Assembly: GCF_001677475.2 (NCBI RefSeq)
Contig: NZ_CP015229.1
DNA: 64,000 nucleotides
Direction: 5' to 3' (one strand)
From: Escherichia coli
GTDB taxonomy: Bacteria > Pseudomonadota > Gammaproteobacteria > Enterobacterales > Enterobacteriaceae
Under the pieces are notes generated by a model. That model was not told where the DNA came from and did not search any database. It saw only the letters and a program-made list of their open reading frames with translations. Position numbers and translations under genes: made by a program. Positions 17,343-58,402 of the stretch are shown piece after piece; within the stretch, counting starts at the first letter, position 1, and each line of letters starts with the position of its first letter.

Positions 17343-17459
17343 AAAAAAAAGCGGATCCTGGAGATCCGCAAAAGTTCACGTTGGCTTTAGTTATTCGAGT
17401 TGAGAAACTCTCGAAACGGGCAGTGACTTCAAGGGTTAAAAGAGGTGCCGCTCCGTTTC
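17343..17459 (-). ncRNA. oxyS: OxyS small regulatory RNA (about 109 nt plus U-tail)
   Basis: Minus strand reads GAAACGGAGCGGCACCTCTTTTAACCCTTGAAGTCACTGCCCGTTTCGAG..GCGGATCTCCAGGATCCGC then a U-run; divergent from oxyR. Confidence 0.93.
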
Positions 17460-19855: not shown

Positions 19856-20184
19856 GGTAGGGCTTACCTGTTCTTATACATAAAAGCAACAGAATGGTAA
19901 CATTTTATCGCGGGTAAGCCAATTGATCCCCGTCATTAATCTGGCTATAGCGTGAGCGGCCTTTGCTTTGTCTGCCCCCTTCTTAACCCATTTATTTACT
20001 ATTAATCGCTTTTTCTTATGGCTGATAGTTTTATCTTGCCGAAGCGTGCTTTTTTGTTATTGTCTTTATGAAATATTCTTATAAAACAAACATATAAATA
20101 TTTTATATTGATGAGTTATTTGTATTTATACCATCAATAAAATCCGTTAATTAGCCTGTTTATAAGTGAATAAAGGAATAGCCG

Positions 20185-21351
20185 ATGATCGAACACTATA
20201 TTCGAGGGTTTGAGGAAGAACTGCGTGAGATCCGCCATCAGATCCACGAAAACCCGGAGCTGGGATTACAAGAATTTAAAACCAGTGCTTTGGTGGCGGA
20301 AAAGCTGCGTCAGTGGGGCTATGAAGTAGAGCAAGGACTGGCGACGACGGGGATAGTGGCCACGTTAAAAGTGGGCGACGGAGAGAAAAGTATTGGCCTG
20401 CGGGCGGATATGGATGCGCTGCCAATTTATGAAAATAGTGGCAAGCCCTGGGCCAGTAAACATCCTGGTTTAATGCACGCCTGCGGGCATGACGGGCATA
20501 CCACCATACTGCTGGGGGCCGCGCGTTATTTTGCCGAAACCCGCCGTTTTAACGGCACGTTACGTCTTATCTTCCAGCCTGCGGAAGAGATGATTAACGG
20601 CGGTGAGATCATGGTTAAAGAGGGGCTTTTTGATCATTTCCCCTGCGATGTCATTTTCGGCATGCATAACATGCCCGGTCTGCCGGTGGGTAAGTTTTAT
20701 TTCCAGCCAGGGGAACTGATGGCGTCAATGGATCAGTTCCATATTACAGTTCGTGGTTGTGGCGGACACGGTGCGATCCCGCACAAAGCCATCGATCCGG
20801 TGCTGGTTGCCGCACATATCACCACCGCATTACAAAGCATTGTGTCGCGCAATGTCGATCCGCTGGAAGCGGCGGTAATTACCGTCGGCAGCATTGTTGC
20901 GGGTGAGGCGGCTAACGTCATTCCTGACAGTGCTGAGATGAAAATCAGCGTCCGCTCTCTTAGCCGCGATACCCGACAACTTCTTCTGACCCGTATTCCT
21001 GCTCTGGCACAAACCCAGGCTGCCAGCTTTGGTGCTACGGCTGAGGTTACGCATGTTAACGGTACACCGGTATTAGTGAATGACGAGGAGATGGCGCGCT
21101 TCGCCTGGCAGGTGGCGTGTAAAACGTTTGGTGAAGATCGGGCCGAGTTTGGCATCAAGCCCCTGATGGGCAGTGAGGATTTCTCTTTCATGCTGGAAGC
21201 CCAGCCGAAAGGCGCTTTTTTGCTGTTCGGTAATGGCGATGTCGGGGAAGGTTCCTGCATGGTGCATAACCCGGGTTACGACTTCAACGATGCAAGTCTG
21301 GTCCCGGCATGCAGCTACTGGGGCGCACTGGTAGAAGCTTGGCTGCAATAA
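20185..21351 (+). CDS. M20D-family metal-dependent amidohydrolase (hippurate hydrolase / N-acyl-amino-acid deacylase-like)
   Basis: 388-aa ORF; HACGHDGH metal-binding signature; GGAGG-like RBS (aaaggaa) upstream; no signal peptide. Confidence 0.8.
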   Translation: MIEHYIRGFEEELREIRHQIHENPELGLQEFKTSALVAEKLRQWGYEVEQGLATTGIVATLKVGDGEKSIGLRADMDALPIYENSGKPWASKHPGLMHACGHDGHTTILLGAARYFAETRRFNGTLRLIFQPAEEMINGGEIMVKEGLFDHFPCDVIFGMHNMPGLPVGKFYFQPGELMASMDQFHITVRGCGGHGAIPHKAIDPVLVAAHITTALQSIVSRNVDPLEAAVITVGSIVAGEAANVIPDSAEMKISVRSLSRDTRQLLLTRIPALAQTQAASFGATAEVTHVNGTPVLVNDEEMARFAWQVACKTFGEDRAEFGIKPLMGSEDFSFMLEAQPKGAFLLFGNGDVGEGSCMVHNPGYDFNDASLVPACSYWGALVEAWLQ

Positions 21352-21393
21352 ATAAAACAACACACAACAACACTTTTTGGCAAGGAACATGGA

Positions 21394-22710
21394 ATGACGG
21401 CGATCGTAAATGAAACCGTGAGTGTGAAGAAAAAGCCCAGCGGTAAGCGGGTGATTTTTGCTTCGGCGTTTGGCAATGCGCTCGAATTTTTTGATTTTGG
21501 CGTTTACAACTTTTTTGTGGTCTATATCAGTACGCTTTTCTTCCCACCCAGCGCTGATCACAATGTCGCGCTGTTACTGGCATTTGCAACATTTGGCGTG
21601 AGTTTTTTTATGCGCCCGCTTGGTGGAATTATCGTCGGGGCCTGGGCCGATCGCTTCGGACGCAAACCCGCGATGGTGTTCACCATTGCCCTGATGAGCC
21701 TCGGTACACTGATGATCGGCATCGCACCGACGTATGAAACGGCGGGCTATTGGGGAACCGCGACGCTGGTGCTGGCGCGTCTAATTCAGGGCGTTGCGGC
21801 AGGAGGCGAAGTCGGTGCCTCAATGTCTTTGTTGGTTGAATCAGCTCCGGCAAATCGTCGCGGCTTTTACAGCAGTTGGTCACTGGCGACTCAAGGCCTG
21901 GCAACAACCTTTGGTGGTGTTGTCGCTTTAGGTTTAAGCGCATGGCTGCCCTTTGCGACAGGTTCAGAAACCGTAATGGCTGAATGGGGCTGGCGTGTGC
22001 CATTTTTTATTGGCGTGTTATTAGCACCTATCGGTTGCTGGTTGCGTCTGAGCCTGGAAAATGACGTACCTGAGCTAGTGCGCAATAAAAAAGCTGCTAC
22101 CAGCGAAAGCGCGTTCTCTCTGCTCCTGCAACATAAGGCGACTATCGTTAACGGCGTTTTACTCGCTATTGGTAGCACGGTCGCAACCTATATCTCCCTC
22201 TTTTATTACGGCACCTGGGCGGCGAAGTATCTGGCGATGCCTCAACATTATTCTCATGCAGCGATGTTACTGGCGGGCGTTATTACGTTTGTGGGTGCGC
22301 TGCTTGTGGGGATGTTGTGCGATTCGGTCGGGCGTAAAAAGCTGATTTTAATCTCCCGTGTGATGGTGCTGATCTGTAGCTGGCCGTCATTCTGGCTGTT
22401 GGTGAATTACCCAAGCCCTGGCATGTTGCTGACGGTGGTTTTCGTGATGGTCAGCTTTACCACGCTTGGCGGTGTGCCGGTAATGTTGCTGATCTCTGAA
22501 CTGTTGCCGAAACGGATTCGGGCATTGGGTTTTGCGCTGGTTTATAGCATTGGTGTGGCAATCTTTGGCGGTTTTGCTCAATATTTCGCTACGCAATCCA
22601 TCGTGTTGCTGGATAGTTTGACAGCTCCGGCGTGGTATTTGGGTGGAGGCACGTTGCTGTCGATGCTGGCGTTGTTGTACGTAAAAGAACCGGCCAAAGA
22701 ATTGCAGTAA
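21394..22710 (+). CDS. Major facilitator superfamily permease, metabolite:H+ symporter (MHS) type
   Basis: 438-aa hydrophobic ORF; [13 protein letters not shown] (GxxxDRxGRK) motif; 42 bp after the amidohydrolase, same strand. Confidence 0.8.
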
Positions 22711-24963: not shown

Positions 24964-25091
24964 GATGTATCCTGAAAAATTAAAGTACGCGGCGATTGTA
25001 GGGATTGCTCATCAGATGTCCAGATCTTGATGAATTCCTATTTGTGAGCTACGTCTGGACAGTAACTTGTTACAACCTGTAGCATCCACTT

Positions 25092-25331
25092 GCCGGTCCT
25101 GTGAGTTAATAGGGAATCCAGTGCGAATCTGGAGCTGACGCGCAGCGGTAAGGAAAGGTGCGATGATCGCGTTATGCGGACACTGCCATTCGGTGGGAAG
25201 TCATCATCTCTTAGTATCTTAGATACCCCTCCAAGCCCGAAGACCTGCCGGCCAACGTCGCATCTGGTTCTCATCATCGCGTAATATTGATGAAACCTGC
25301 GGCATCCTTCTTCTATTGTGGATGCTTTACA
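25092..25331 (+). promoter_or_regulatory. Adenosylcobalamin riboswitch in the btuB 5' leader
   Basis: About 240-nt leader GCCGGTCCTGTGAGTTAATAGGGAATCCAGTGCGAATCTGGAGCTGAC.. with B12-box-like CCCGAAGACCTGCCGGCC. Confidence 0.88.
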
Positions 25332-27176
25332 ATGATTAAAAAAGCTTCGCTGCTGACGGCGTGTTCTGTCACAGCCTTTTCCGCTTGGGCACAGGATACC
25401 AGCCCGGATACTCTCGTTGTTACTGCTAACCGTTTTGAACAGCCGCGCAGCACTGTGCTTGCACCAACCACCGTTGTGACGCGTCAGGATATCGACCGCT
25501 GGCAGTCGACCTCGGTCAATGATGTGCTGCGCCGTCTCCCTGGTGTGGATATCACCCAAAACGGCGGTTCAGGTCAGCTCTCATCTATTTTTATTCGCGG
25601 TACAAATGCCAGTCATGTGTTGGTGTTAATTGATGGCGTCCGCCTGAATCTGGCGGGGGTGAGTGGTTCTGCTGACCTTAGTCAGTTCCCTATTGCGCTT
25701 GTCCAGCGTGTTGAATATATCCGTGGGCCGCGCTCCGCTGTTTATGGTTCAGATGCAATAGGCGGGGTCGTGAATATCATCACGACGCGCGATCACCCCG
25801 GAACGGAAATTTCAGCAGGGTGGGGAAGCAATAGCTATCAGAACTATGATGTCTCTACACAGCAACAACTGGGGGATAAGACACGGGTAACGCTGTTGGG
25901 CGATTATGCCCATACTCATGGTTATGATGTTGTCGCCTATGGTAATACCGGAACGCAAGCGCAGCCAGATAACGATGGTTTTTTAAGTAAAACGCTTTAT
26001 GGCGCGCTGGAGCATAATTTTACTGATGTCTGGAGCGGCTTTGTGCGCGGCTATGGCTATGATAATCGTACTAATTATGACGCATATTATTCTCCCGGCT
26101 CGCCGCTGGTCGATACACGTAAACTCTATAGCCAAAGTTGGGATGCCGGACTGCGCTATAACGGCGAACTGATTAAATCACAACTCATTACCAGCTACAG
26201 CCATAGCAAAGATTACAACTACGATCCGCATTATGGTCGTTATGATTCGTCCGCGACGCTCGATGAGATGAAACAGTACACCGTCCAGTGGGCAAACAAT
26301 GTCATCGTTGGTCACGGTAGTATTGGTGCGGGTGTCGACTGGCAGAAACAGACTACGACGCCGGGTACAGGTTATGTTGAGGATGGATATGATCAACGTA
26401 ATACCGGCATCTATCTGACCGGGCTGCAACAAGTCGGCGATTTTACCTTTGAAGGCGCAGCACGCAGCGACGATAACTCACAGTTTGGTCGTCATGGAAC
26501 CTGGCAAACCAGCGTCGGTTGGGAATTCATCGAAGGTTATCGGTTTATCGCTTCTTATGGTACGTCGTACAAGGCACCTAATCTTGGGCAACTCTACGGC
26601 TTCTACGGTAATCCGGATCTGAACCCTGAGAAAAGCAAACAGTGGGAAGGGGCGTTTGAAGGCTTAACCGCTGGAGTGAACTGGCGTATTTCCGGATACC
26701 GTAACGATGTTAGTGACTTGATCGATTACGATGATCACACCCTCAAATACTACAATGAAGGGAAAGCGCGAATTAAGGGCGTCGAGGCGACCGCCAATTT
26801 TGATACCGGACCGCTGACGCATACGGTGAGTTATGATTATGTCGATGCGCGTAACGCGATTACCGACACGCCGTTGCTACGTCGCGCTAAACAGCAGGTG
26901 AAATATCAGCTCGACTGGCAACTGTATGACTTCGACTGGGGTATTACTTATCAGTATTTAGGCACTCGCTATGATAAGGATTACTCATCTTATCCTTATC
27001 AAACCGTTAAAATGGGCGGTGTGAGCTTGTGGGATCTTGCGGTTGCGTATCCGGTCACCTCTCACCTGACAGTTCGTGGTAAAATAGCCAACCTGTTCGA
27101 CAAAGATTATGAGACAGTCTATGGCTACCAAACTGCAGGACGGGAATACACCTTGTCTGGCAGCTACACCTTCTGA
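25332..27176 (+). CDS. btuB: TonB-dependent outer-membrane vitamin B12 receptor
   Basis: ORF-track 25287..27176 trimmed to Met at 25332 ([35 protein letters not shown]..), 614 aa; TonB box; C-terminal aromatic residue. Confidence 0.95.
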
Positions 27177-27978
27177 ACCACGTCCCACCGTGCTGGTGTT
27201 TGACTCCGGCGTCGGTGGGTTGTCGGTCTATGACGAGATCCGGCATCTCTTACCGGATCTCCATTACATTTATGCTTTCGATAACGTCGCTTTCCCGTAT
27301 GGCGAAAAAAGCGAAGAGTTTATTGTTGAGCGAGTGGTGGCAATTGTCACCGCGGTGCAAGAACGTTATCCCCTTGCGCTGGCTGTGGTCGCTTGCAACA
27401 CTGCCAGTACCGTTTCACTTCCTGCATTACGCGAAAAGTTCGACTTCCCGGTTGTTGGTGTCGTGCCGGCGATTAAACCTGCTGCACGTCTGACGGCAAA
27501 TGGCATTGTCGGATTACTGGCAACCCGCGGAACAGTTAAACGTTCTTATACTCATGAGCTGATCGCGCGTTTCGCTAATGAATGCCAGATAGAAATGCTG
27601 GGCTCGGCAGAGATGGTTGAGTTGGCTGAAGCGAAGCTGCATGGCGAAGATGTTTCTCTGGATGCACTAAAACGTATCCTACGCCCGTGGTTAAGAATGA
27701 AAGAGCCGCCAGATACCGTTGTATTGGGTTGCACCCATTTCCCTCTACTACAAGAAGAACTGTTACAAGTGCTGCCAGAGGGAACCCGGCTGGTGGATTC
27801 TGGCGCAGCGATTGCTCGCCGAACGGCTTGGTTGTTAGAACATGAAGCCCCGGATGCAAAATCTGCCGATGCGAATATTGCCTTTTGTATGGCAATGACG
27901 CCAGAAGCTGAACAATTATTGCCCGTTTTACAGCGTTACGGCTTCGAAACGCTCGAAAAACTGGCAGTTTTAGGCTGA
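27121..27978 (+). CDS. murI: Glutamate racemase
   Basis: ORF-track 27109..27978 trimmed to ATG 27121 ([16 protein letters not shown]..), 285 aa; overlaps btuB 3' end by 56 bp. Confidence 0.93.
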
Positions 27979-28023
27979 TTTGGTTGAATGTTGCGCGGTC
28001 AGAAAATTATTTTAAATTTCCTC

Positions 28024-28351: not shown

Positions 28352-29893
<1,542 letters not shown>

Positions 29894-29978: not shown

Positions 29979-30054
29979 GTCCCCTTCGTCTAGAGGCCCA
30001 GGACACCGCCCTTTCACGGCGGTAACAGGGGTTCGAATCCCCTAGGGGACGCCA
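29979..30054 (+). tRNA. gltT: tRNA-Glu (UUC) in the 16S-23S spacer
   Basis: GTCCCCTTCGTCTAGAGGCCCAGGACACCGCCCTTTCACGGCGGTAACAGGGGTTCGAATCCCCTAGGGGACGCCA. Confidence 0.98.
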
Positions 30055-30247
30055 CTTGCTGGTTTGTGAGTGAAAGTCACCTGCCTTAATATCTCAAAAC
30101 TCATCTTCGGGTGACGTTTGAGATATTTGCTCTTTAAAAATCTGGATCAAGCTGAAAATTGAAACACTGAACAACGAAAGTTGTTCGTGAGTCTCTCAAA
30201 TTTTCGCAACACGATGATGAATCGAAAGAAACATCTTCGGGTTGTGA

Positions 30248-33150
<2,903 letters not shown>

Positions 33151-33243
33151 ACAACGCCGAAGCTGTTTTGGCGGATTGAGAGAAGATTTTCAGCCTGATA
33201 CAGATTAAATCAGAACGCAGAAGCGGTCTGATAAAACAGAATT

Positions 33244-33363
33244 TGCCTGGCGGCCGTAGCGCGGTGGTCCCACCTGACCCCATGCCGAACTCAGAAGTGA
33301 AACGCCGTAGCGCCGATGGTAGTGTGGGGTCTCCCCATGCGAGAGTAGGGAACTGCCAGGCAT
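33244..33363 (+). rRNA. rrfB: 5S ribosomal RNA
   Basis: TGCCTGGCGGCCGTAGCGCGGTGGTCCCACCTGACCCCATGCCGAACTCAG..GGAACTGCCAGGCAT; 120 nt. Confidence 0.99.
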
Positions 33364-33367
33364 CAAA

Positions 33368-33409
33368 TAAAACGAAAGGCTCAGTCGAAAGACTGGGCCT
33401 TTCGTTTTA
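33368..33409 (+). terminator. rrnB T1 terminator
   Basis: aaaacgaaaggctcagtcgaaagactgggcctttcgtttt hairpin plus T-run. Confidence 0.92.
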
Positions 33410-33544
33410 TCTGTTGTTTGTCGGTGAACGCTCTCCTGAGTAGGACAAATCCGCCGGGAGCGGATTTGAACGTTGCGAAGCAACGGCCCGGAGGGTGGCG
33501 GGCAGGACGCCCGCCATAAACTGCCAGGCATCAAATTAAGCAGA

Positions 33545-33575
33545 AGGCCCGGTCGGAAGACTGGGCCTTTTTGCG
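33545..33575 (+). terminator. rrnB T2 terminator (stem sequence differs from the K-12 version)
   Basis: aggcccggtcggaagactgggcct hairpin followed by TTTTT. Confidence 0.8.
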
Positions 33576-33665
33576 TTTCTACAAACTCTCCCTGTCGTCA
33601 TAACTACAAGCCATCCCCCCACAGATACGGTAAACTAGCCTCGTTTTTGCATCAGGAAAGCAGCT

Positions 33666-34694
33666 ATGAACCACTCCTTAAAACCCTGGAACACATTTGG
33701 CATTGATCATAATGCTCAGCACATTGTATGTGCCGAAGACGAACAACAACTACTCAATGCCTGGCAGCATGCAACCGCAGAAGGGCAACCCGTTCTTATT
33801 CTGGGTGAAGGAAGTAATGTACTTTTTCTGGAAGACTATCGCGGCACGGTGATCATCAACCGGATCAAAGGTATCGAAATTCATGATGAACCTGATGCGT
33901 GGTATTTACATGTAGGAGCCGGAGAAAACTGGCATCGCCTGGTAAAATACACTTTGCAGGAAGGTATGCCTGGTCTGGAAAATCTGGCATTAATTCCTGG
34001 TTGTGTCGGCTCATCACCTATCCAGAATATTGGTGCTTATGGCGTAGAATTACAGCGAGTTTGCGCTTATGTTGACTGTGTTGAACTGGCGACAGGCAAG
34101 CAAGTGCGCTTAACTGCCAAAGAGTGCCGTTTTGGCTATCGCGACAGTATTTTTAAACATGAATACCAGGACCGCTTCGCTATTGTAGCCGTAGGTCTGC
34201 GTCTGCCAAAAGAGTGGCAACCTGTACTAACGTATGGTGACTTAACTCGTCTGGATCCTACAACAGTAACGCCACAGCAAGTATTTAATGCGGTGTGTCA
34301 TATGCGCACCACCAAACTCCCTGATCCAAAAGTGAATGGCAATGCCGGTAGTTTCTTCAAAAACCCTGTTGTATCTGCCGAAATGGCTAAAGCATTACTG
34401 GCTCAATTTCCAACAGCACCAAATTACCCCCAGGTGGATGGTTCAGTAAAACTGGCAGCAGGTTGGCTTATCGATCAGTGCCAGCTAAAAGGGATGCAAA
34501 TGGGTGGGGCTGCGGTGCACCGTCAACAGGCGTTAGTTCTCATCAATGAAGGCAATGCAAAAAGCGAAGATGTGGTGCAACTGGCACACCATGTAAGACA
34601 AAAAGTGGGTGAAAAATTTAATGTCTGGCTTGAGCCTGAAGTTCGCTTTATTGGTGCATCAGGTGAAGTTAGCGCAGTGGAGACGATTTCATGA
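33666..34694 (+). CDS. murB: UDP-N-acetylenolpyruvoylglucosamine reductase
   Basis: 342-aa [24 protein letters not shown].. Confidence 0.95.
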
Positions 34695-35656
34695 AGGATA
34701 ATACCGTTCCGCTGAAATTAATCGCGCTGTTAGCGAATGGCGAATTTCACTCTGGTGAGCAGTTGGGTGAAACGTTAGGAATGAGCCGGGCGGCTATTAA
34801 TAAACACATTCAGACACTGCGTGACTGGGGCGTTGATGTCTTTACCGTTCCGGGTAAAGGATACAGCCTGCCTGAGCCTATCCAGTTACTTAATGCTGAA
34901 CAGATATTGGGTCAGCTGGATGGCGGTAGTGTAACTGTGCTGCCAGTGATTGACTCCACGAATCAGTACCTTCTTGATCGTATCGGAGAGCTTAAATCGG
35001 GCGATGCCTGCGTTGCAGAATACCAGCAGGCTGGCCGTGGTCGCCGGGGTCGGAAATGGTTTTCGCCTTTTGGCGCAAACTTATATTTGTCGATGTTCTG
35101 GCGTCTGGAACAAGGCCCGGCGGCGGCGATTGGTTTAAGTCTGGTTATCGGTATCGTGATGGCGGAAGTATTACGCAAGCTGGGTGCAGATAAAGTTCGT
35201 GTTAAATGGCCTAATGACCTCTATCTGCAGGATCGCAAGCTGGCAGGCATTCTTGTGGAGCTGACTGGCAAAACCGGCGATGCGGCGCAAATAGTCATTG
35301 GAGCCGGGATCAACATGGCAATGCGTCGTGTTGAAGAGAGTGTCGTTAATCAGGGGTGGATCACGCTGCAGGAAGCGGGGATCAATCTCGATCGTAATAC
35401 GTTGGCGGCCATGCTAATACGTGAATTACGCGCGGCGCTGGAACTCTTCGAACAAGAAGGATTGGTACCTTATCTTTCGCGCTGGGAAAAGCTGGATAAT
35501 TTTATTAATCGCCCAGTGAAACTTATCATTGGTGATAAAGAAATATTTGGCATTTCACGCGGAATAGACAAACAGGGCGCTTTATTGCTTGAGCAGGATG
35601 GAATAATAAAACCCTGGATGGGCGGTGAAATATCCCTGCGTAGTGCAGAAAAATAA
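34691..35656 (+). CDS. birA: Bifunctional biotin-[acetyl-CoA-carboxylase] ligase / biotin operon repressor
   Basis: 321-aa [30 protein letters not shown]..; ATGA overlap with murB. Confidence 0.95.
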
Positions 35657-35658
35657 GA

Positions 35659-35678
35659 AGGGGAGCATTAGCTCCCCT
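35659..35678. terminator. Shared hairpin between convergent birA and coaA
   Basis: aggggagcattagctcccct palindrome in the 27-bp intergenic gap. Confidence 0.55.
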
Positions 35679-35683
35679 GTAAA

Positions 35684-36634
35684 TTATTTGCGTAGTCTGA
35701 CCTCTTCTACCGCATGATTAGCACTTTTCGTCAGGATTAAACTGGCGCGCTCGCGAGTAGGTAGAATATTTTGCTTTAAGTTCAGCCAGTTGATCTCTTT
35801 CCACAATGTCATGGCTGTCTTAATCGCTTCTTCTTTAGTTAATTTCGCGTAGTTATGAAAATAGGAATCCGGGTCTGTAAAAGCCCCTTCGCGGAATTTC
35901 AGAAAACGGTTGATATACCACGTCTGAAGTAAGTCTTCCGGTGCATCAACATATATCGAAAAATCGACAAAATCAGAAACAAATACATGATGTGGATCGT
36001 GTGGATAATCCATCCCGCTCTGTAAGACATTTAACCCTTCAAGAATTAAAATATCAGGCTGAACAACAGTTTTATCTCCATCCGGGATCACATCATAAAT
36101 AAGATGCGAGTAAACAGGGGCTGTAACGTTTGGCACGCCGGATTTGAGATCGGAAACAAACTTCACCAGGCGATGCATATCATACGATTCCGGGAAGCCT
36201 TTCTTCTTCATCAGACCACGTTCTTTCAGAACCTGATTAGGGTGAAGGAAGCCATCTGTAGTGATCAGTTCAACACGACGATGTTCCGGCCAACGGCTTA
36301 ATAGCGCCTGCAATACACGGGCGGTTGTACTTTTCCCCACCGCGACACTACCAGCAATACTGATAATGTAAGGAATGCGTTGCCCGTTGGTACCAAGAAA
36401 CTGTTCCAGAACTGCCTGACGGCGCAGATTCGAGCTTATATAGAAGTTCAGCAAACGTGACAGAGGTAAATAGATCTCGGCAACTTCTTCTAACGAGAGA
36501 TCTTCATTAATACCTTTGAGACGGGCGATCTCATCTTCCGATAACGTCATAGGTACGGAATCACGCAGAGCTGCCCACTGGTTGCGGTCAAACTGTAGGT
36601 AAGGCGTCATTAACGTTTGCTCTTTTATACTCAT
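35684..36634 (-). CDS. coaA: Pantothenate kinase
   Basis: ORF-track 35684..36655 trimmed to Met at 36634 ([20 protein letters not shown]..), 316 aa; P-loop GSVAVGKST. Confidence 0.93.
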
Positions 36635-36951
36635 AAGCATGTTTCTGGCGGTCATAGCTCTATCGGCAAGCGATATTTGCCATGGCGCGTCACAGTTCTG
36701 TTGAATGGGTCAATGGGCAGGAGGGTAACACCAGATGGGGAGGAATAATAAGAAAAAATCTCTCCCAGGAAGCTATCGTTGAAAAGCAATGTGACAGATA
36801 TTCCATCCGATAAAAAGAATTATGGTTTAGCAGGAGCGCATTGTTGAGCACAATGATGTTGAAAAAGTGTGCTAATCTGCCCTCCATTCGGCTGTTTCTT
36901 CATCGTGTCGCATAAAATGTGACCAATAAAACAAATTATGCAATTTTTTAG

Positions 36952-36986
36952 TTGCATGAACTCGCATGTCTCCATAGAATGCGCGC
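36952..36986 (+). promoter_or_regulatory. Promoter of the thrU-tyrU-glyT-thrT-tufB operon
   Basis: -35 TTGCAT (36952-36957), 17-bp spacer, -10 TAGAAT (36975-36980), GCGC discriminator; AT-rich upstream tract. Confidence 0.75.
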
Positions 36987-36994
36987 TACTTGAT

Positions 36995-37070
<76 letters not shown>

Positions 37071-37078
37071 TCAAGTCC

Positions 37079-37163
<85 letters not shown>

Positions 37164-37279
37164 ATTTCGGCCACGCGATGGCGTAGCCCGAGACGATAAG
37201 TTCGCTTACCGGCTCGAATAAAGAGAGCTTCTCTCGATATTCAGTGCAGAATGAAAATCAGGTAGCCGAGTTCCAGGAT

Positions 37280-37354
<75 letters not shown>

Positions 37355-37360
37355 AGATGT

Positions 37361-37436
37361 GCTGATATAGCTCAGTTGGTAGAGCGCACCCTTGGTAAGG
37401 GTGAGGTCGGCAGTTCGAATCTGCCTATCAGCACCA
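37361..37436 (+). tRNA. thrT: tRNA-Thr
   Basis: GCTGATATAGCTCAGTTGGTAGAGCGCACCCTTGGTAAGGGTGAGGTCGGCAGTTCGAATCTGCCTATCAGCACCA. Confidence 0.98.
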
Positions 37437-37514
37437 CTTCTTTTCTCCTTCCTGTTTTTTCCTTCTGTTTATTGCATTCAACAAGTCGGGCATGTTGCCT
37501 GGTTGATGTGGTGA

Positions 37515-38735
<1,221 letters not shown>

Positions 38736-38766
38736 TTGCCGATAACATTTGACGCAATGCGCACTA

Positions 38767-38792
38767 AAAGGGCATCATTTGATGCCCTTTTT
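38767..38792 (+). terminator. tufB intrinsic terminator
   Basis: aaagggcatcatttgatgccctttttg. Confidence 0.8.
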
Positions 38793-38964
38793 GCACGCTT
38801 TCGTACCAGAACCTGGCTCATCAGTGATTTTCTTTGTCATAATCATTGCTGAGACAGGCTCTGTTGAGGGCGTATAATCCGAAAAGCTAATACGCGTTTC
38901 GATTTGGTTTGCCTCGCGATCGCGGGGTGAAAATGTTTGTAGAAAACTTCTGACAGGTTGGTTT

Positions 38965-39348
38965 ATGAGTGCGAATACCGAAGCTCAAGGAAGCGGGCGC
39001 GGCCTGGAAGCGATGAAGTGGGTCGTTGTGGTGGCATTGCTCCTGGTGGCGATTGTCGGCAACTATCTTTATCGCGACATTATGCTGCCGCTGCGTGCGC
39101 TGGCCGTAGTAATTCTGATTGCTGCAGCGGGTGGTGTCGCGCTGTTAACGACAAAAGGTAAAGCTACCGTTGCTTTTGCCCGTGAAGCGCGTACCGAAGT
39201 CCGTAAGGTCATTTGGCCGACTCGCCAGGAAACATTGCACACCACGCTGATTGTGGCTGCGGTTACCGCAGTAATGTCACTGATCCTGTGGGGACTGGAT
39301 GGTATTCTGGTTCGCCTGGTATCCTTTATCACTGGCCTGAGGTTCTGA
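38965..39348 (+). CDS. secE: Preprotein translocase subunit SecE
   Basis: 127-aa ORF with three hydrophobic segments. Confidence 0.95.
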
Positions 39349-39349
39349 G

Positions 39350-39895
39350 ATGTCTGAAGCTCCTAAAAAGCGCTGGTACGTCGTTCAGGCGTTTTCCGGT
39401 TTTGAAGGCCGCGTAGCAACGTCGCTGCGTGAGCATATCAAATTACACAACATGGAAGATTTGTTTGGTGAAGTCATGGTACCAACCGAAGAAGTGGTTG
39501 AAATCCGTGGCGGTCAGCGTCGCAAAAGCGAACGTAAATTCTTCCCTGGCTACGTCCTCGTTCAGATGGTGATGAACGACGCGAGCTGGCACCTGGTGCG
39601 CAGCGTACCGCGTGTGATGGGCTTCATCGGTGGTACTTCCGATCGTCCTGCGCCAATCAGCGATAAAGAAGTCGATGCGATTATGAACCGCCTGCAGCAG
39701 GTTGGTGATAAGCCGCGTCCGAAAACGCTGTTTGAACCGGGTGAAATGGTCCGTGTTAATGATGGTCCGTTCGCTGACTTCAACGGTGTTGTTGAAGAAG
39801 TGGATTACGAGAAATCTCGTCTGAAAGTGTCTGTTTCTATCTTCGGTCGTGCGACCCCGGTAGAGCTGGACTTCAGCCAGGTTGAAAAAGCCTAA
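39350..39895 (+). CDS. nusG: Transcription antitermination factor NusG
   Basis: 181-aa [26 protein letters not shown].. Confidence 0.96.
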
Positions 39896-39926
39896 CCCAG
39901 CGATCAAAAAAGCGGCGATTTAATCG

Positions 39927-39973
39927 TTGCACAAGGCGCGAGATTGGAATACAATTTCGCGCCTTTTGTTTTT
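39927..39973 (+). promoter_or_regulatory. rplKA (L11 operon) promoter superimposed on the nusG terminator hairpin
   Basis: -35 TTGCAC (39927-39932), 17-bp spacer, -10 TACAAT (39950-39955); embedded hairpin ggcgcgagatt..aatttcgcgcc followed by TTTTGTTTTT. Confidence 0.6.
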
Positions 39974-39990
39974 ATGGGCCTTGCCCGTAA

Positions 39991-41190
<1,200 letters not shown>

Positions 41191-41602
41191 TGCCTTTACG
41201 TGGGCGGTGATTTTGTCTACAATCTTACCCCCACGTATAATGCTTAATGCAGACGTATATCCGAGATATTCGGGTTGTGGCAAGGCGGCAACTGAGTGAG
41301 TCGCCAGGAGCATAGCTAACTATGTGACTGGTGCGAACGAAGGAAGCCAACGCCGCCACAAGCTGAATAGCGACGGATAGAAAAGATTTGTTCGTTGGAG
41401 CCTGGCCTATCCAGGCCTCCGTCGAAGACCGCAGGAGTTTCGCAAGAAACTTAATCCCCTGCGTAGACGGTGACAGAACGCTAAGATTATTCTTTTATAT
41501 TCTGGCTTGTTTCTGCTCACCGTAATTAAGACGCTCTCTCCGTTTGGAGGAGTGAAGTGAGTTCCAGAGATTTTCTCTGGCAAACATCCAGGAGCAAAGC
41601 TA
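41191..41602 (+). promoter_or_regulatory. rplJL leader (L10 promoter and L10-(L12)4 autoregulatory mRNA leader)
   Basis: About 410-nt untranslated, structured region between rplA and rplJ, as in the known L10 operon. Confidence 0.65.
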
Positions 41603-42100
41603 ATGGCTTTAAATCTTCAAGACAAACAAGCGATTGTTGCTGAAGTCAGCGAAGTAGCCAAAGGCGCGCTGTCTGCAGTAGTTGCGGATTCCCGTGGCGT
41701 AACTGTAGATAAAATGACTGAACTGCGTAAAGCAGGTCGCGAAGCTGGCGTATACATGCGTGTTGTTCGTAACACCCTGCTGCGCCGTGCTGTTGAAGGT
41801 ACTCCGTTCGAGTGCCTGAAAGACGCGTTTGTTGGTCCGACCCTGATTGCATACTCTATGGAACACCCGGGCGCTGCTGCTCGTCTGTTCAAAGAGTTCG
41901 CGAAAGCGAATGCAAAATTTGAGGTCAAAGCCGCTGCCTTTGAAGGTGAGCTGATCCCGGCGTCTCAGATCGACCGCCTGGCAACTCTGCCGACCTACGA
42001 AGAAGCAATTGCACGCCTGATGGCAACCATGAAAGAAGCTTCGGCTGGCAAACTGGTTCGTACTCTGGCTGCTGTACGCGATGCGAAAGAAGCTGCTTAA
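41603..42100 (+). CDS. rplJ: 50S ribosomal protein L10
   Basis: 165-aa [32 protein letters not shown].. Confidence 0.98.
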
Positions 42101-42166
42101 TCGCAGTTATCTTTTTAACGCATTCGCTTACGTATAAACTTATTCTGATATTCAGGAACAATTTAA

Positions 42167-42532
<366 letters not shown>

Positions 42533-42550
42533 GCCAACCCTTCCGGTTGC

Positions 42551-42606
42551 AGCCTGAGAAATCAGGCTGATGGCTGGTGACTTTTTAGTCACCAGCCTTT
42601 TTGCGC
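42551..42606 (+). terminator. rplL-rpoB intercistronic attenuator
   Basis: Two hairpins (cagcctgagaaatcaggctg; ggctggtgactttttagtcaccagcc) followed by TTTTTGCGC. Confidence 0.75.
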
Positions 42607-42851
42607 TGTAAGGCGCCAGTAGCGTTTCACACTGTTTGACTACTGCTGTGCCTTTCAATGCTTGTTTCTATCGACGACTTAATATACTGCGACAGGACGT
42701 CCGTTCTGTGTAAATCGCAATGAAATGGTTTAAGCGTGATAGCAACAGGCATTGCGGAAAGTGTTCCATTTTCCGGTCAACAAAATAGTGTTGCACAAAC
42801 TGTCCGCTCAATGGACAGATGGGTCGACTTGTCAGCGAGCTGAGGAACCCT

Positions 42852-45800
42852 ATGGTTTACTCCTATACCGAGAAAAAACGTATTCGTAAGGATTTTGGTA
42901 AACGTCCACAAGTTCTGGATGTACCTTATCTCCTTTCTATCCAGCTTGACTCGTTTCAGAAATTTATCGAGCAAGATCCTGAAGGGCAGTATGGTCTGGA
43001 AGCTGCTTTCCGTTCCGTATTCCCGATTCAGAGCTACAGCGGTAATTCCGAGCTGCAATACGTCAGCTACCGCCTTGGCGAACCGGTGTTTGACGTCCAG
43101 GAATGTCAAATCCGTGGCGTGACCTATTCCGCACCGCTGCGCGTTAAACTGCGTCTGGTGATCTATGAGCGCGAAGCGCCGGAAGGCACCGTAAAAGACA
43201 TTAAAGAACAAGAAGTCTACATGGGCGAAATTCCGCTCATGACAGACAACGGTACCTTTGTTATCAACGGTACTGAGCGTGTTATCGTTTCCCAGCTGCA
43301 CCGTAGTCCGGGCGTCTTCTTTGACTCCGACAAAGGTAAAACCCACTCTTCGGGTAAAGTGCTGTATAACGCGCGCATCATCCCTTACCGTGGTTCCTGG
43401 CTGGACTTCGAATTCGATCCGAAGGACAACCTGTTCGTACGTATCGACCGTCGCCGTAAACTGCCTGCGACCATCATTCTGCGCGCCCTGAACTACACCA
43501 CAGAGCAGATCCTCGACCTGTTCTTTGAAAAAGTTATCTTTGAAATCCGTGATAACAAGCTGCAGATGGAACTGGTGCCGGAACGCCTGCGTGGTGAAAC
43601 CGCATCTTTTGACATCGAAGCTAACGGTAAAGTGTACGTAGAAAAAGGCCGCCGTATCACTGCGCGCCACATTCGCCAGCTGGAAAAAGACGACGTCAAA
43701 CTGATCGAAGTCCCGGTTGAGTACATCGCAGGTAAAGTGGTTGCTAAAGACTATATTGATGAGTCTACCGGCGAGCTGATCTGCGCAGCGAACATGGAGC
43801 TGAGCCTGGATCTGCTGGCTAAGCTGAGCCAGTCTGGTCACAAGCGTATCGAAACGCTGTTCACCAACGACCTGGATCACGGCCCGTATATCTCTGAAAC
43901 CTTACGTGTCGACCCAACTAACGACCGTCTGAGCGCACTGGTAGAAATCTACCGCATGATGCGCCCTGGCGAGCCGCCGACTCGTGAAGCAGCTGAAAGC
44001 CTGTTCGAGAACCTGTTCTTCTCCGAAGACCGTTATGACCTGTCTGCGGTTGGTCGTATGAAGTTCAACCGTTCTCTGCTGCGCGAAGAAATCGAAGGTT
44101 CCGGTATCCTGAGCAAAGACGACATCATTGATGTTATGAAAAAACTCATCGATATCCGTAACGGTAAAGGCGAAGTCGATGATATCGACCACCTCGGCAA
44201 CCGTCGTATCCGTTCCGTTGGCGAAATGGCGGAAAACCAGTTCCGCGTTGGCCTGGTACGTGTAGAGCGTGCGGTGAAAGAGCGTCTGTCTCTGGGCGAT
44301 CTGGATACCCTGATGCCTCAGGATATGATCAACGCCAAGCCGATTTCCGCAGCAGTGAAAGAGTTCTTCGGTTCCAGCCAGTTGTCTCAGTTTATGGACC
44401 AGAACAACCCGCTGTCTGAGATTACGCACAAACGTCGTATCTCCGCACTCGGCCCAGGCGGTCTGACCCGTGAACGTGCAGGCTTCGAAGTTCGAGACGT
44501 ACACCCGACTCACTACGGTCGCGTATGTCCAATCGAAACCCCTGAAGGTCCGAACATCGGTCTGATCAACTCTCTGTCCGTGTACGCACAGACTAACGAA
44601 TACGGCTTCCTTGAGACTCCGTATCGTAAAGTGACTGACGGTGTTGTAACCGACGAAATTCACTACCTGTCTGCTATCGAAGAAGGCAACTACGTTATCG
44701 CTCAGGCGAACTCCAACCTGGATGAAGAAGGCCACTTCGTAGAAGACCTGGTAACTTGCCGTAGCAAAGGCGAATCCAGCTTGTTCAGCCGCGACCAGGT
44801 TGACTACATGGACGTATCCACTCAGCAGGTGGTATCCGTCGGTGCGTCCCTGATCCCGTTCCTGGAACACGATGACGCCAACCGTGCATTGATGGGTGCG
44901 AACATGCAACGTCAGGCCGTTCCGACTCTGCGCGCTGATAAGCCGCTGGTTGGTACGGGTATGGAACGTGCTGTTGCCGTTGACTCCGGTGTAACTGCGG
45001 TTGCTAAACGTGGCGGTGTCGTTCAGTACGTGGATGCTTCCCGTATCGTTATCAAAGTTAACGAAGACGAGATGTATCCGGGTGAAGCAGGTATCGACAT
45101 CTACAACCTGACCAAATACACCCGTTCTAACCAGAACACCTGTATCAACCAGATGCCGTGTGTGTCTCTGGGTGAACCGGTAGAACGTGGCGACGTGCTG
45201 GCAGACGGTCCGTCCACCGACCTCGGTGAACTGGCGCTTGGTCAGAACATGCGCGTAGCGTTCATGCCGTGGAATGGTTACAACTTCGAAGACTCCATCC
45301 TCGTATCCGAGCGTGTTGTTCAGGAAGACCGTTTCACCACCATCCACATTCAGGAACTGGCGTGTGTGTCCCGTGACACCAAGCTGGGGCCGGAAGAGAT
45401 CACCGCTGACATCCCGAACGTGGGTGAAGCTGCGCTCTCCAAACTGGATGAATCCGGTATCGTTTACATTGGTGCGGAAGTGACCGGTGGTGACATTCTG
45501 GTTGGTAAGGTAACGCCGAAAGGTGAAACTCAGCTGACCCCAGAAGAAAAACTGCTGCGTGCGATCTTCGGTGAGAAAGCGTCTGACGTTAAAGACTCTT
45601 CTCTGCGCGTACCAAACGGTGTATCCGGTACGGTTATCGACGTTCAGGTCTTTACTCGCGATGGCGTAGAAAAAGACAAACGTGCGCTGGAAATCGAAGA
45701 AATGCAGCTCAAACAGGCGAAGAAAGACCTGTCTGAAGAACTGCAGATCCTCGAAGCGGGTCTGTTCAGCCGTATCCGTGCTGTGCTGGTAGCCGGTGGC

Positions 45801-46880
45801 GTTGAAGCTGAGAAGCTCGACAAACTGCCGCGCGATCGCTGGCTGGAGCTGGGCCTGACCGACGAAGAGAAACAAAATCAGCTGGAACAGCTGGCTGAGC
45901 AGTATGACGAACTGAAACACGAGTTCGAGAAGAAACTCGAAGCGAAACGCCGCAAAATCACCCAGGGCGACGATCTGGCACCGGGCGTGCTGAAGATTGT
46001 TAAGGTATATCTGGCGGTTAAACGCCGTATCCAGCCTGGTGACAAGATGGCAGGTCGTCACGGTAACAAGGGTGTAATTTCTAAGATCAACCCGATCGAA
46101 GATATGCCTTACGATGAAAACGGTACGCCGGTAGACATCGTACTGAACCCGCTGGGCGTACCGTCTCGTATGAACATCGGTCAGATCCTCGAAACCCACC
46201 TGGGTATGGCTGCGAAAGGTATCGGCGACAAGATCAACGCCATGCTGAAACAGCAGCAAGAAGTCGCGAAACTGCGCGAATTCATCCAGCGTGCTTACGA
46301 TCTGGGCGCTGACGTTCGTCAGAAAGTTGACCTGAGTACCTTCAGCGATGAAGAAGTTATGCGTCTGGCTGAAAACCTGCGCAAAGGTATGCCAATCGCA
46401 ACGCCGGTCTTCGACGGTGCGAAAGAAGCAGAAATTAAAGAGCTGCTGAAACTTGGCGACCTGCCGACTTCTGGTCAGATCCGCCTGTACGACGGTCGCA
46501 CTGGTGAACAGTTCGAACGTCCGGTAACCGTTGGTTACATGTACATGCTGAAACTGAACCACCTGGTCGACGACAAGATGCACGCGCGTTCCACCGGTTC
46601 TTACAGCCTGGTTACTCAGCAGCCGCTGGGTGGTAAGGCACAGTTCGGTGGTCAGCGTTTCGGGGAGATGGAAGTGTGGGCGCTGGAAGCATACGGCGCA
46701 GCATACACCCTGCAGGAAATGCTCACCGTTAAGTCTGATGACGTGAACGGTCGTACCAAGATGTATAAAAACATCGTGGACGGCAACCATCAGATGGAGC
46801 CGGGCATGCCAGAATCCTTCAACGTATTGTTGAAAGAGATTCGTTCGCTGGGTATCAACATCGAACTGGAAGACGAGTAA
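42852..46880 (+). CDS. rpoB: DNA-directed RNA polymerase beta subunit
   Basis: ORF-track 42819..46880 trimmed to Met at 42852 ([31 protein letters not shown]..), 1342 aa; rifampicin cluster I reads the wild-type [32 protein letters not shown]. Confidence 0.98.
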
Positions 46881-46956
46881 TTCTCGCTCAAACAGGTCAC
46901 TGCTGTCGGGGTAAAACCCGGCAGCGGATTGTGCTAACTCCGACGGGAGCAAATCC

Positions 46957-51228: not shown

Positions 51229-51421
51229 TGGGAGTTATTCAGAGGGCAAAGTCTTCACGGGAAATATTAAGAAAGGCAGGGCGAAACGAGGAAGAAGCTT
51301 TTCGCCCTGGACAACATTCCTGCTGACGGCACTACCATAAAAAAACACAACGCTTTCAACAACCTTGCGTTTTTCATCTTCCGGAGCTGCTCGGAATAAA
51401 TTTACGTTCTTACATTCCGTC

Positions 51422-52555
51422 TCATGGCCTTTGCGAGGCGCGTCCCAGATAGCTGTCCCAGTCTTTCCATACCGGCTGCAAACCCTGAGCGGTTAACGCG
51501 GCAGCAACCGCTTCCGGTCTGCGATCGTCGTGTGGTGAGAACTGTTCCAGCTCGGGGTGATTGTCGGCATAACCCCCTGGCTGCGTTTTCGAGAAGGCGC
51601 TGACGTTATTGATCGCCAGCGGAATAACGCGATCGCGAAACCACGGTGATTCCCGCGTGGAGAGTGACAGTTCAATCTCCGGTGCAAGCAGTCGGAAGGC
51701 GCAGATGGTTTGCACTAACTGGCGTTCATCCATAATCGACGCAGGCTCAATGCCGCCAGTACACGGGCGCAGGCGCGGAAAGGAGACAGAGTAACGGCTT
51801 TGCCAGTAATGCTGTTGCAGCCATAGCAAATGTTCGGCAACCATATAGCAGTCAACGCGCCAGCTGTCGGAAAGGCCAATTAGCGCGCCGAGGCCTATCT
51901 TATCAATCCCCGCACACCCCAGCCGATCCGGCGTTTCCAGCCGCCAGAAGAAGTCCTGTTTTTTGCCTTTCAGATGATGACGGGCATATGTCGCCTCGTG
52001 ATACGTCTCCTGATAAACCATCACCCCATCGAGACCAAGCTGTTTTAGCTCGGCATATTCCGCCTCCGCCAGCGGTTGCACTTCCAGCTGTAGTGAAGAG
52101 AACTGTTCACGCAGGGCAGGAAGATGACGACGAAAGTAATCCATCCCCACTTTCGCCTGATGTTCACCAGTGACTAATAGCAGATGTTCAAAGCCCATCT
52201 CCCGTATAGCGGCGCTTTCCCTGGCAATATCCGCTTCATCCAGCGTTTTGCGCTTGATGCGGTTGCTCATGGAAAATCCGCAGTACGTGCAGTCGTTAGC
52301 GCAAAGATTGGAAAGATAAAGCGGGACGTAAAGACTGACAACGTTGCCAAATCGTTGACGGGTCAGACGCTGCGCCCGTTGGGCCAGTGGTTCCAGATAG
52401 CCACTGGCGGCTGGCGATAACAGCGCCATCATATCGTCGCGGGTGAGTTGCGAGGCATTTAGCGCCCGCTCTACGTCAGCAGCCGTTTTGCTGTTGATAT
52501 GCAGGCGGATGTCGTCCCAGTCCAGTTGTCGCCAGCGATCGCTGAAGGTTTTCAT
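51422..52555 (-). CDS. thiH: 2-iminoacetate synthase (tyrosine lyase, radical SAM)
   Basis: 377-aa ORF; CANDCTYC radical-SAM triad. Confidence 0.95.
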
Positions 52556-53322: not shown

Positions 53323-53323
53323 C

Positions 53324-54890: not shown

Positions 54891-54891
<1 letters not shown>
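54256..54891 (-). CDS. thiE: Thiamine-phosphate synthase
   Basis: ATG at 54891 ([20 protein letters not shown]..), 211 aa; start overlaps the thiC stop by 1 nt. Confidence 0.93.
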
Positions 54892-56965
<2,074 letters not shown>

Positions 56966-58363: not shown

Positions 58364-58402
58364 TGATACACTGACCGCCTGACGCACTAAGGAACAGCCA
58401 AA

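What the first reader, a model, noticed from the sequence alone, without database searches (positions are those of the whole stretch)
33530..33580. rrnB T2 terminator stem differs from the K-12 form while keeping the hairpin
The T2 hairpin here is aggcccggtcggaagactgggcct plus a T-run. I remember the K-12 T2 stem (as used in common cloning vectors) as ggccatcctgacggatggcc. Both arms have changed yet pairing is retained, and the new stem resembles part of T1 (gtcgaaagactgggcc), suggesting T1-to-T2 gene conversion or compensatory evolution.
Basis: partly seen in the sequence, partly recalled or inferred. Interest (0 to 1): 0.2.

Follow-up and report, generated by a model that had tools for sequence, protein, structure and literature searches.

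The report
Common natural rrnB T2 terminator allele
The second transcription terminator after this E. coli ribosomal RNA operon carries a different hairpin from the lab strain K-12, but the hairpin is a common natural variant borrowed from the family of the first terminator, so the finding is real but ordinary.

Summary
The window carries rrnB followed by murB. The T2 hairpin is GGCCCGGTC-GGAA-GACTGGGCC plus a T-run (33546-33572). K-12 has GGCCATCC-TGAC-GGATGGCC between identical flanks.

It is not stepwise compensatory evolution. The inner 12 nt are replaced as a block by 14 nt of the T1 hairpin family, matching the resident T1 at 19 of 22 positions.

It is not a fresh T1-to-T2 conversion in this strain either. 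The same allele, with the same downstream SNPs, sits directly after 5S in strains that have no T1 at rrnB, such as S51. It matches a 43-nt query at 99% identity or better in 435 of 5,426 complete E. coli genomes, O157:H7 among them. About 1,470 genomes carry a close version.

The K-12 type is commoner: about 3,000 genomes and 43 of 58 readable Enterobacteriaceae species. A T1-like hairpin at this position recurs in E. albertii, E. whittamii, Citrobacter, Kosakonia and one Enterobacter.

Only the combination T1 + spacer + T1-like T2 at rrnB is rare (15 complete genomes). The same module sits at rrnE in SE11-like strains.

Both alleles fold stably (-26.1 against -22.7 kcal/mol) with the same U-tract. 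My verdict is an ordinary polymorphism from terminator-cassette shuffling among rrn operons. Interest is low.

The parts
33244..33363 (+). 5S rRNA gene (rrfB), last gene of the rrnB operon. It has one difference from K-12 (C for A at 33255).
   Evidence: Rfam RF00001 match at 33246-33361. A 120-nt comparison with K-12 rrfB shows 1 mismatch.
33351..33368 (+). First copy of the 18-bp direct repeat AACTGCCAGGCATCAAAT (3' end of 5S plus 5 nt).
   Evidence: Exact pattern positions. In strains without the T1 module only one copy exists (alignment A1).
33367..33410 (+). rrnB T1 intrinsic terminator, with core hairpin GGCTCAGTC-GAAA-GACTGGGCC at 33378-33399. It is identical to K-12.
   Evidence: Terminator scan finds 20 pairs. 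It folds at -32 kcal/mol, z = -9.3. Identical to L001.
33411..33518 (+). T1-T2 spacer, identical to K-12. Together with T1 it forms a 168-bp module (33369-33536 in one register) that is present or absent among E. coli strains.
   Evidence: Alignment A1. The module is present at rrnB in 2,512 of 5,426 complete genomes.
33519..33536 (+). Second copy of the 18-bp direct repeat.
33546..33572 (+). rrnB T2 intrinsic terminator in its T1-like allele: stem GGCCCGGTC / GACTGGGCC with one G.U pair, GNRA-type loop GGAA, then TTTTT. The predicted stem extends to 33540-33574 through pairing of upstream A-rich bases with the T-run.
   Evidence: Sequence. Folds at -26.1 kcal/mol, z = -5.4 to -6.2. 99.2% of cells pair across 11 T1-family hairpins, with two pairs changed on both sides.
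33666..34694 (+). murB, the first gene downstream and the gene shielded from rrnB read-through.
   Evidence: ORF list. Annotation of matching records as murB.

Best explanation
This is the distal (T2) Rho-independent terminator of the rrnB operon, in a common natural allele.

The inner hairpin is of the T1 family (C-R-GTCGRAAGAC-Y-G) rather than the K-12 type (CCATCC-loop-GGATGG). It sits between the same conserved flanks: the leader TAAGCAGAAGGCC and GGCC followed by the U-tract UUUUUGCG.

How it works is inferred from sequence. The GC-rich 9-bp stem with a GGAA tetraloop forms in the nascent transcript just before the U-tract and releases RNA polymerase that has read through T1. This insulates murB.

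How it arose is also inferred. Enterobacterial rrn operons end in a small set of interchangeable hairpin cassettes. These are shuffled between operons by gene conversion, and between strains by homologous recombination. The window's downstream flank matches the haplotype of S51-like strains, where the hairpin follows 5S directly. The window also has the 168-bp T1 + spacer module, which is bounded by 18-bp direct repeats. That module was either gained by conversion from another operon or kept where S51-like strains deleted it.
For: Locus identity and hairpin:
- The locus is rrnB followed by murB.
- Hairpin and U-tract are present. The window allele folds at -26.1 kcal/mol and the K-12 allele at -22.7, and no shuffle of either folds as well.
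- The flanks are identical to K-12 T2, and only the inner 14 versus 12 nt differ.

Frequency in E. coli:
- The 43-nt query of hairpin plus rrnB-specific flank matches at 99% identity or better in 435 complete genomes, O157:H7 among them. 1,470 of 5,426 genomes match over at least 80% of the query.
- The K-12 type is present in roughly 3,000 to 3,342 genomes.
- All four combinations of T1 module present or absent with either stem type exist: K-12, the window with 2020CK-00188, S51 with CFT073, and REL606.
- The window matches S51 exactly from 33519 to 33700 and K-12 exactly across T1 and the spacer.

Other operons and species:
- The same T1 + spacer + T1-like-T2 module lies at rrnE, next to yjaB, in SE11 and N3.
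- In K-12, rrnA and rrnD carry T1 + spacer + a K-type T2, and rrnG carries the K-type alone.
- At the murB-proximal site, 43 of 58 readable species representatives have the K-type. A T1-family hairpin is the murB-proximal one in E. albertii, E. whittamii, C. amalonaticus, Kosakonia oryzendophytica and one Enterobacter.

Pairing and authenticity:
- Pairing is conserved through A-U, G.U and G-C at one pair and C-G, U.G and U-A at another.
- The sequence is not an assembly artefact. It matches 3,031 of 3,031 bases of NCBI draft GCA_033692315.1 and a contig seen in 20 or more sequencing runs.
Against: - No termination was measured here.
- The simple consensus scan does not call T2. It fails in the same way on the K-12 allele, probably because the A-rich leader pairs with the T-run.
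- The direction and mechanism of cassette exchange are not shown. Homology downstream of the hairpin between operons is only about 12 nt (GGCCTTTTTGCG), which is short for RecA-dependent conversion.
- The covariation statistics on 11 sequences are weak: 54 of 500 shuffles reach the observed value.
- The other six rrn operons of the window's own genome could not be examined.
- The genome counts are BLAST-based estimates. The K-type count is inflated by rrnA matches of 34-36 nt.
Confidence: 0.85

Rival explanations
1. A recent gene conversion within this operon copied the resident T1 hairpin into T2 in this strain's lineage.
For: T2 matches T1 at 19 of 22 hairpin positions, and the two lie only 168 bp apart in direct orientation.
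Against: T1 and T2 differ at 3 positions, including the loop (GAAA against GGAA). The identical T2 allele, with the same downstream SNPs, is found in strains with no T1 at rrnB (S51). The T2 hairpin with its immediate flanks is exact in O157:H7 genomes. The leader and trailer of T2 are not T1-like. T1-like hairpins at this site occur in other species.
Confidence: 0.05
2. Stepwise compensatory substitutions turned the K-12 stem into the present stem while selection kept the pairing.
For: Both arms differ and pairing is retained. Within the T1-like family, true compensatory steps do occur: A-U in strain 190693, G.U in the window and G-C in E. albertii.
Against: Between the two types the inner stem, the loop and the length (12 against 14 nt) all change together. 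Every hairpin read directly at this site falls cleanly into one type or another. The new sequence matches a pre-existing paralogous hairpin almost exactly.
Confidence: 0.03
3. The K-12 form is the derived allele, and the T1-like hairpin is the ancestral Escherichia rrnB terminator. The window would then simply keep the old state.
For: E. albertii and E. whittamii carry T1-like hairpins at the murB-proximal site. About 27% of complete E. coli genomes do as well.
Against: 43 of 58 Enterobacteriaceae species representatives carry the K-type there, including E. coli E69 and Escherichia sp. E1V33. With recurrent exchange, the ancestral state within the genus cannot be resolved from these data.
Confidence: 0.25
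4. Assembly artefact: a chimeric join of repeated rrn sequence produced a T1 + T1-like-T2 arrangement that does not exist.
For: The T1 + spacer module is repeated in several operons, and rrn regions are prone to mis-assembly. The combination is rare: 15 of 5,426 complete genomes.
Against: An independent NCBI draft contig and a Logan contig match exactly, and the Logan contig recurs in 20 or more runs. Both span spacer, T2 and murB. Fifteen closed genomes show the same architecture.
Confidence: 0.02

Closest known systems
E. coli K-12 rrnB T2 terminator, the distal terminator of the T1-T2 tandem used in pKK223-3 and pTrc-type vectors
   Same: Orthologous position 168 bp after T1 and about 95 bp before murB. 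The leader (TAAGCAGAAGGCC), the outer GGCC pairs, the U-tract and the downstream sequence are identical. The predicted role as a back-up intrinsic terminator is the same.
   Different: The inner stem and loop are CGGTC-GGAA-GACTG instead of ATCC-TGAC-GGAT. The stem is one pair longer and has a G.U pair, and the predicted fold is 3.4 kcal/mol more stable.
rrn T1-type terminator hairpin (rrnB, rrnA and rrnD T1 of K-12)
   Same: The core is CAGTCGRAAGACTG with a GNRA loop. It matches 19 to 20 of 22 positions, and the GGAA loop is shared with rrnA and rrnD T1.
   Different: It lacks T1's long extended stem (ATAAAACGAAA...TTTCGTTTTAT) and T1's trailer. It carries C-G and G.U where T1 has U.G and A-U. 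It sits in T2 context.
Single rrnB terminator of E. coli S51 and the O157:H7 lineage, with close versions in CFT073 and strain 190693
   Same: From the 18-bp repeat through murB the window is identical to S51. The hairpin with its immediate flanks is exact in O157:H7 genomes.
   Different: In those strains the hairpin follows 5S directly and no T1 module is present. Strain 190693 has the perfect A-U stem, and CFT073 also has an altered leader.
rrnE 3' end of SE11, N3 and O103:H2-type strains
   Same: The same 5S, T1, spacer and T1-like-T2 module through GGCCTTTTTGCG. SE11 differs by 1 nt across that module. N3 is exact over the 83-nt query spanning the spacer end and T2, though its spacer differs further upstream.
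   Different: A different operon and downstream flank (yjaB side).

Membership tests
Intrinsic (Rho-independent) terminator | A GC-rich stem-loop that forms in the transcript | tested here: met
   A 9-bp core stem with 7 G-C pairs and a 4-nt loop. It folds at -26.1 kcal/mol, z = -5.4 to -6.2, and 0 of 200 shuffles fold as well.
Intrinsic (Rho-independent) terminator | A U-tract immediately 3' of the stem | tested here: met
   TTTTT at 33568-33572, then GCGTTTC. The simple scan tool misses it, but it also misses the experimentally known K-12 T2.
Intrinsic (Rho-independent) terminator | Transcripts actually end at the U-tract | not testable with these tools
   This needs Term-seq, 3' RACE or in vitro transcription.
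rrnB T2 (orthologous site) | Position after 5S, T1 and spacer and before murB, with the conserved leader and trailer | tested here: met
   Alignment A1 with K-12 L001. Flanking identity is 100% apart from 2 SNPs downstream.
rrnB T2 (K-12 allele) | Stem GGCCATCC / GGATGGCC with loop TGAC | tested here: not met
   The window has GGCCCGGTC / GACTGGGCC with loop GGAA. It is a different allele at the same site.
T1-type rrn terminator hairpin family | Core C-R-GTCG-R-AAGAC-Y-G palindrome with a GNRA loop | tested here: met
   19 of 22 positions match the resident T1 and 20 of 22 match K-12 rrnA T1. 99.2% of cells pair across 11 family members.
Product of rrn inter-operon gene conversion (concerted evolution) | An identical tract at a paralogous operon, with mosaic breakpoints relative to the flanking haplotypes | tested here: inconclusive
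   The same module is found at rrnE of SE11 and N3, and the window is mosaic: K-12-identical upstream and S51-identical downstream. The donor, the direction and the other operons of the window's own genome are unknown.

The most novel reading that the evidence does not exclude
Terminator hairpins at the ends of enterobacterial rrn operons may behave as discrete swappable cassettes. The T1-type, the CCATCC-type, the CCCCG-type and the CCUCAUGC-type would be exchanged repeatedly and independently in different genera between very short conserved flanks (GGCC...GGCCUUUUUGCG). That would require short-patch conversion or hairpin-templated switching rather than ordinary RecA-length homology. The window would be one mosaic product of this process.
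Probability: 0.3. Interest if true: 0.35.

Novelty: already known. Interest (0 to 1): 0.12.

Why it matters
It matters little for biology. The variant is a frequent natural allele of a well-understood element, and its predicted function is unchanged.

It is a reminder that the textbook and vector rrnB T1-T2 is only one of at least four natural architectures. About half of complete E. coli genomes have no T1 module at rrnB, and about a quarter carry a T1-like hairpin at the T2 site.

The alleles could serve as natural terminator variants for synthetic-biology parts. They could also serve as markers of recombination around rrnB.

The cassette pattern across genera is a small, tractable example of concerted evolution reaching beyond the rRNA genes into their terminators.

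Tried and rejected
- The simple terminator scan called only T1. The same scan on K-12 also misses the known T2, so this is a limit of the tool and not evidence against T2.
- A permissive Rfam search of 33355-33670 gave only sub-threshold chance hits. The T1-T2 spacer gave no tRNA or 5S match.
- Two literature searches found vector and rrn-copy-number papers and general reviews of rrn concerted evolution. Nothing was found on natural T2 polymorphism. A third search failed on a term that was too short.
- An 83-nt query meant to count T1-spacer + T1-like-T2 by coverage was confounded, because K-12-type loci aligned through the hairpin at 90.6% identity. I counted from the ranked list instead: 30 genomes carry it in any operon, and 15 of those carry it at rrnB by matching coordinates.
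- I tried to place the strain. No complete RefSeq E. coli genome is closer than 99.5% in the rpoBC region, 97.4% in the accessory island or 98.2% in the thi-zra region. 2020CK-00188, which shares the architecture, is more distant still. Shared architecture therefore does not reflect close kinship.
- A Shigella origin was considered. The window is colinear with K-12 and I saw no IS-sized insertion, so I did not pursue it.
- The first related-loci run failed because of a frame error of one base.

Full report
**What is there.** The window is an Escherichia coli-type chromosome segment, colinear with K-12 MG1655 from 4.14 to 4.20 Mb at 97-99% identity. Rfam places 16S at 28352-29893, tRNA-Glu at 29979-30051, 23S at 30248-33150 and 5S at 33246-33361. 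murB starts at 33666. This is therefore the rrnB operon and its 3' end.

- stem GGCCCGGTC at 33546-33554
- loop GGAA at 33555-33558
- stem GACTGGGCC at 33559-33567
- T-run TTTTT at 33568-33572

An alignment with K-12 (L001) shows that T1 (core 33378-33399) and the whole T1-T2 spacer are identical to K-12. The T2 leader (TAAGCAGAAGGCC) and trailer (GGCCTTTTTGCGTTTCTAC...) are identical as well. Only the inner hairpin differs: CGGTCGGAAGACTG here against ATCCTGACGGAT in K-12.

**Is it a hairpin beyond chance?** Yes. The window's T2 folds at -26.1 kcal/mol (z = -5.4, with 0 of 200 shuffles as good). The K-12 T2 folds at -22.7 and T1 at -32.0 (repeated with trimmed sequences). The consensus terminator scan lists only T1. 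It also fails to list the known K-12 T2, probably because the A-rich leader pairs with the T-run. I treat that as a limit of the tool.

**What kind of change is it?** It is not a set of independent compensatory substitutions. Stem, loop and length change together, and the new inner hairpin belongs to the T1 family:
- it matches the resident T1 (GGCTCAGTCGAAAGACTGGGCC) at 19 of 22 positions
- it matches the T1 of K-12 rrnA at 20 of 22 positions, and rrnA and rrnD T1 share its GGAA loop

Eleven T1-family hairpins from E. coli, E. albertii, E. whittamii, Citrobacter and Enterobacter pair in 99.2% of cells. One pair runs through A-U, G.U and G-C, and another through C-G, U.G and U-A. The window's G.U pair is the intermediate of a genuine small compensatory series within this family. 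Strain 190693 has A-U and E. albertii has G-C. With 11 sequences the shuffle control is weak: 54 of 500 shuffles reach the observed value.

**How common is it?** Among 5,426 complete RefSeq E. coli genomes:
- A 43-nt query covering the window's hairpin plus the rrnB-specific flank hits 1,475 genomes.
- 1,470 of those match over at least 80% of the query, and 435 at 99% identity or better. The exact matches include many O157:H7 strains.
- The largest band (1,032 genomes at 95-99% identity) includes the perfect-stem version GGCCCAGTC, seen in strain 190693.
- The K-12-type query hits 3,714 genomes, 3,342 of them over at least 80%. Some of these are 34-36-nt rrnA matches. From the evenly spaced listing, about 3,000 are full exact matches.

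The K-12 form is therefore the majority allele, and the window's form is a frequent minority allele.

**A second polymorphism explains the context.** The 168-bp T1 + spacer module is bounded by an 18-bp direct repeat, AACTGCCAGGCATCAAAT, at 33351-33368 and 33519-33536. At rrnB the module is present in only 2,512 of the 5,426 genomes. All four combinations exist:
- module + K-type stem (K-12)
- module + T1-like stem (the window, 2020CK-00188)
- no module + T1-like stem (S51, with a variant in CFT073)
- no module + K-type stem (REL606)

The window is identical to K-12 through T1 and the spacer. It is identical to S51 from the second repeat to 33700, just inside murB, including two downstream SNPs. 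It is therefore a mosaic of the two haplotypes.

This combination at rrnB is rare. From the ranked lists complete genomes have it, and none is identical to the window (the best is 98.8%). The arrangement is nevertheless real. An NCBI draft contig (GCA_033692315.1) matches the window at 3,031 of 3,031 bases across 5S, T1, spacer, T2 and murB-birA. A contig assembled in 20 or more independent sequencing runs matches from the spacer onward.

**Other operons and other species.** In K-12, rrnA and rrnD end in T1 + spacer + a K-type T2, and rrnG has the K-type alone. rrnE, rrnC and rrnH use other hairpins. In SE11 and N3 the rrnE operon, next to yjaB, ends in the same T1 + spacer + T1-like-T2 module as the window's rrnB. 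SE11 differs by 1 nt; N3 is exact over the 83-nt query (spacer end and T2), with spacer differences further upstream. O103:H2 and O121 strains give the same 83-nt match, but I did not check which operon it lies in.

Using MurB to fetch orthologous loci from GTDB species representatives, 58 of 80 show a readable terminator upstream of murB:
- 43 have the CCATCC-loop-GGATGG (K) type nearest murB.
- A T1-family hairpin is the murB-proximal one in E. albertii, E. whittamii, Citrobacter amalonaticus, Kosakonia oryzendophytica and one Enterobacter. One further Enterobacter carries a T1 with another hairpin type after it.
- 9 use other hairpins.

Both cassettes occur between the same short flanks (GGCC...GGCCTTTTTGCGTTT) in several genera.

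**Best explanation.** This is the ordinary distal intrinsic terminator of rrnB in a common natural allele. Its mechanism is inferred from sequence, and from the established behaviour of rrnB T1 and T2, which I state from my own knowledge. Hairpin formation followed by the U-tract releases polymerase that escaped T1 and protects murB from rRNA-level read-through.

The origin is best read as exchange of terminator hairpin cassettes among rrn operons (concerted evolution by gene conversion), followed by spread through homologous recombination between strains. Gain or loss of the T1 module across the 18-bp repeats is a separate event. Shown: the mosaic structure, the allele frequencies, the presence of the same module at rrnE elsewhere, and recurrence in other genera. 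Inferred: the direction, the donor and the molecular mechanism.

- **Recent T1-to-T2 conversion in this operon.** This is disfavoured. The two hairpins differ at 3 of 22 positions, and the same allele exists where there is no T1.
- **Compensatory evolution from the K-12 stem.** This is rejected. The replacement is a block, and none of the sequences read here is an intermediate.
- **Which type is ancestral within Escherichia.** This cannot be settled here.

**Source lineage.** No complete RefSeq E. coli genome is close:
- best 99.5% over murB-rpoB
- best 98.2% over thi-zra
- best 97.4% over an accessory island

2020CK-00188, which shares the terminator architecture, is more divergent still. The architecture therefore does not mark a single clone.

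**Verdict.** The feature is an already known kind of element in an already sequenced allele, so interest is low. The only mildly new point is the population-level and cross-genus pattern of cassette shuffling at rrn terminators, for which I found no dedicated paper in two searches.

Noticed in passing
window 33369-33536: The 168-bp T1 + spacer module, bounded by 18-bp direct repeats (33351-33368 and 33519-33536), is a presence/absence polymorphism. It is present at rrnB in only 2,512 of 5,426 complete E. coli genomes, and E. coli B (REL606), CFT073 and S51 lack it. The textbook tandem T1-T2 is therefore not universal.
   Followed up: partly
L097 (N3) 440-760 and L098 (SE11) 440-780: In SE11 and N3 the rrnE operon ends in T1 + spacer + T1-like T2 and is followed directly by yjaB. 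In K-12, rrnE has a different single hairpin followed by yjaA, which is absent here. The terminator module and the presence of yjaA appear to differ together between these strains.
   Followed up: partly
window 19975-22675: A 2.7-kb insertion relative to K-12 lies between sthA and fabR. It has two ORFs (20185-21351 and 21394-22710), annotated in matching genomes as an M20 aminoacylase family protein and a citrate-proton symporter. It is present in 1,505 of 5,426 genomes, but the best identity is only 97.4%.
   Followed up: partly
window 51232-51260: About 0.95 kb present in K-12 after the rpoC terminator, carrying yjaZ and the sRNA gene sroH, is absent from the window. 2020CK-00188 also goes straight from rpoC to thiH.
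   Followed up: partly
window 1-64000: No complete RefSeq E. coli genome is closely related to this window. The best identities are 99.5% (33600-48000), 98.2% (52000-63900) and 97.4% (accessory island). An exact 3-kb match exists only in a draft assembly (GCA_033692315.1) and in contigs from raw sequencing runs. It looks like a deep or poorly represented E. coli lineage.
   Followed up: partly
window 25001-28000: The btuB region is far more divergent between strains than its surroundings: 81-90% identity to 2020CK-00188 and 86-95% to S51, but 97% to K-12. I read this as allelic replacement or diversifying selection on the B12, phage and colicin receptor.
   Followed up: no
window 33255: The 5S rRNA differs from K-12 rrfB at one position (C for A, GGCGGCCGTAGC). 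The same variant is seen in E. coli E69 and in several Citrobacter 5S genes.
   Followed up: no
window 33205-33534 (- strand): A 109-aa TTG-start ORF lies antisense to 5S, T1 and the spacer. It is almost certainly spurious.
   Followed up: no
window 42537-42598 and 30132-30240: There are Rfam hits to 'Pseudomonas sRNA P26', in what corresponds to the rplA-rplJ intergenic region of K-12, and to 'StyR-44', just upstream of 23S. Both lie in conserved leader or spacer regions of ribosomal operons. Other expected elements are OxyS (17350-17459), the cobalamin riboswitch upstream of btuB (25077-25266) and the TPP riboswitch upstream of thiC (56867-56967).
   Followed up: no
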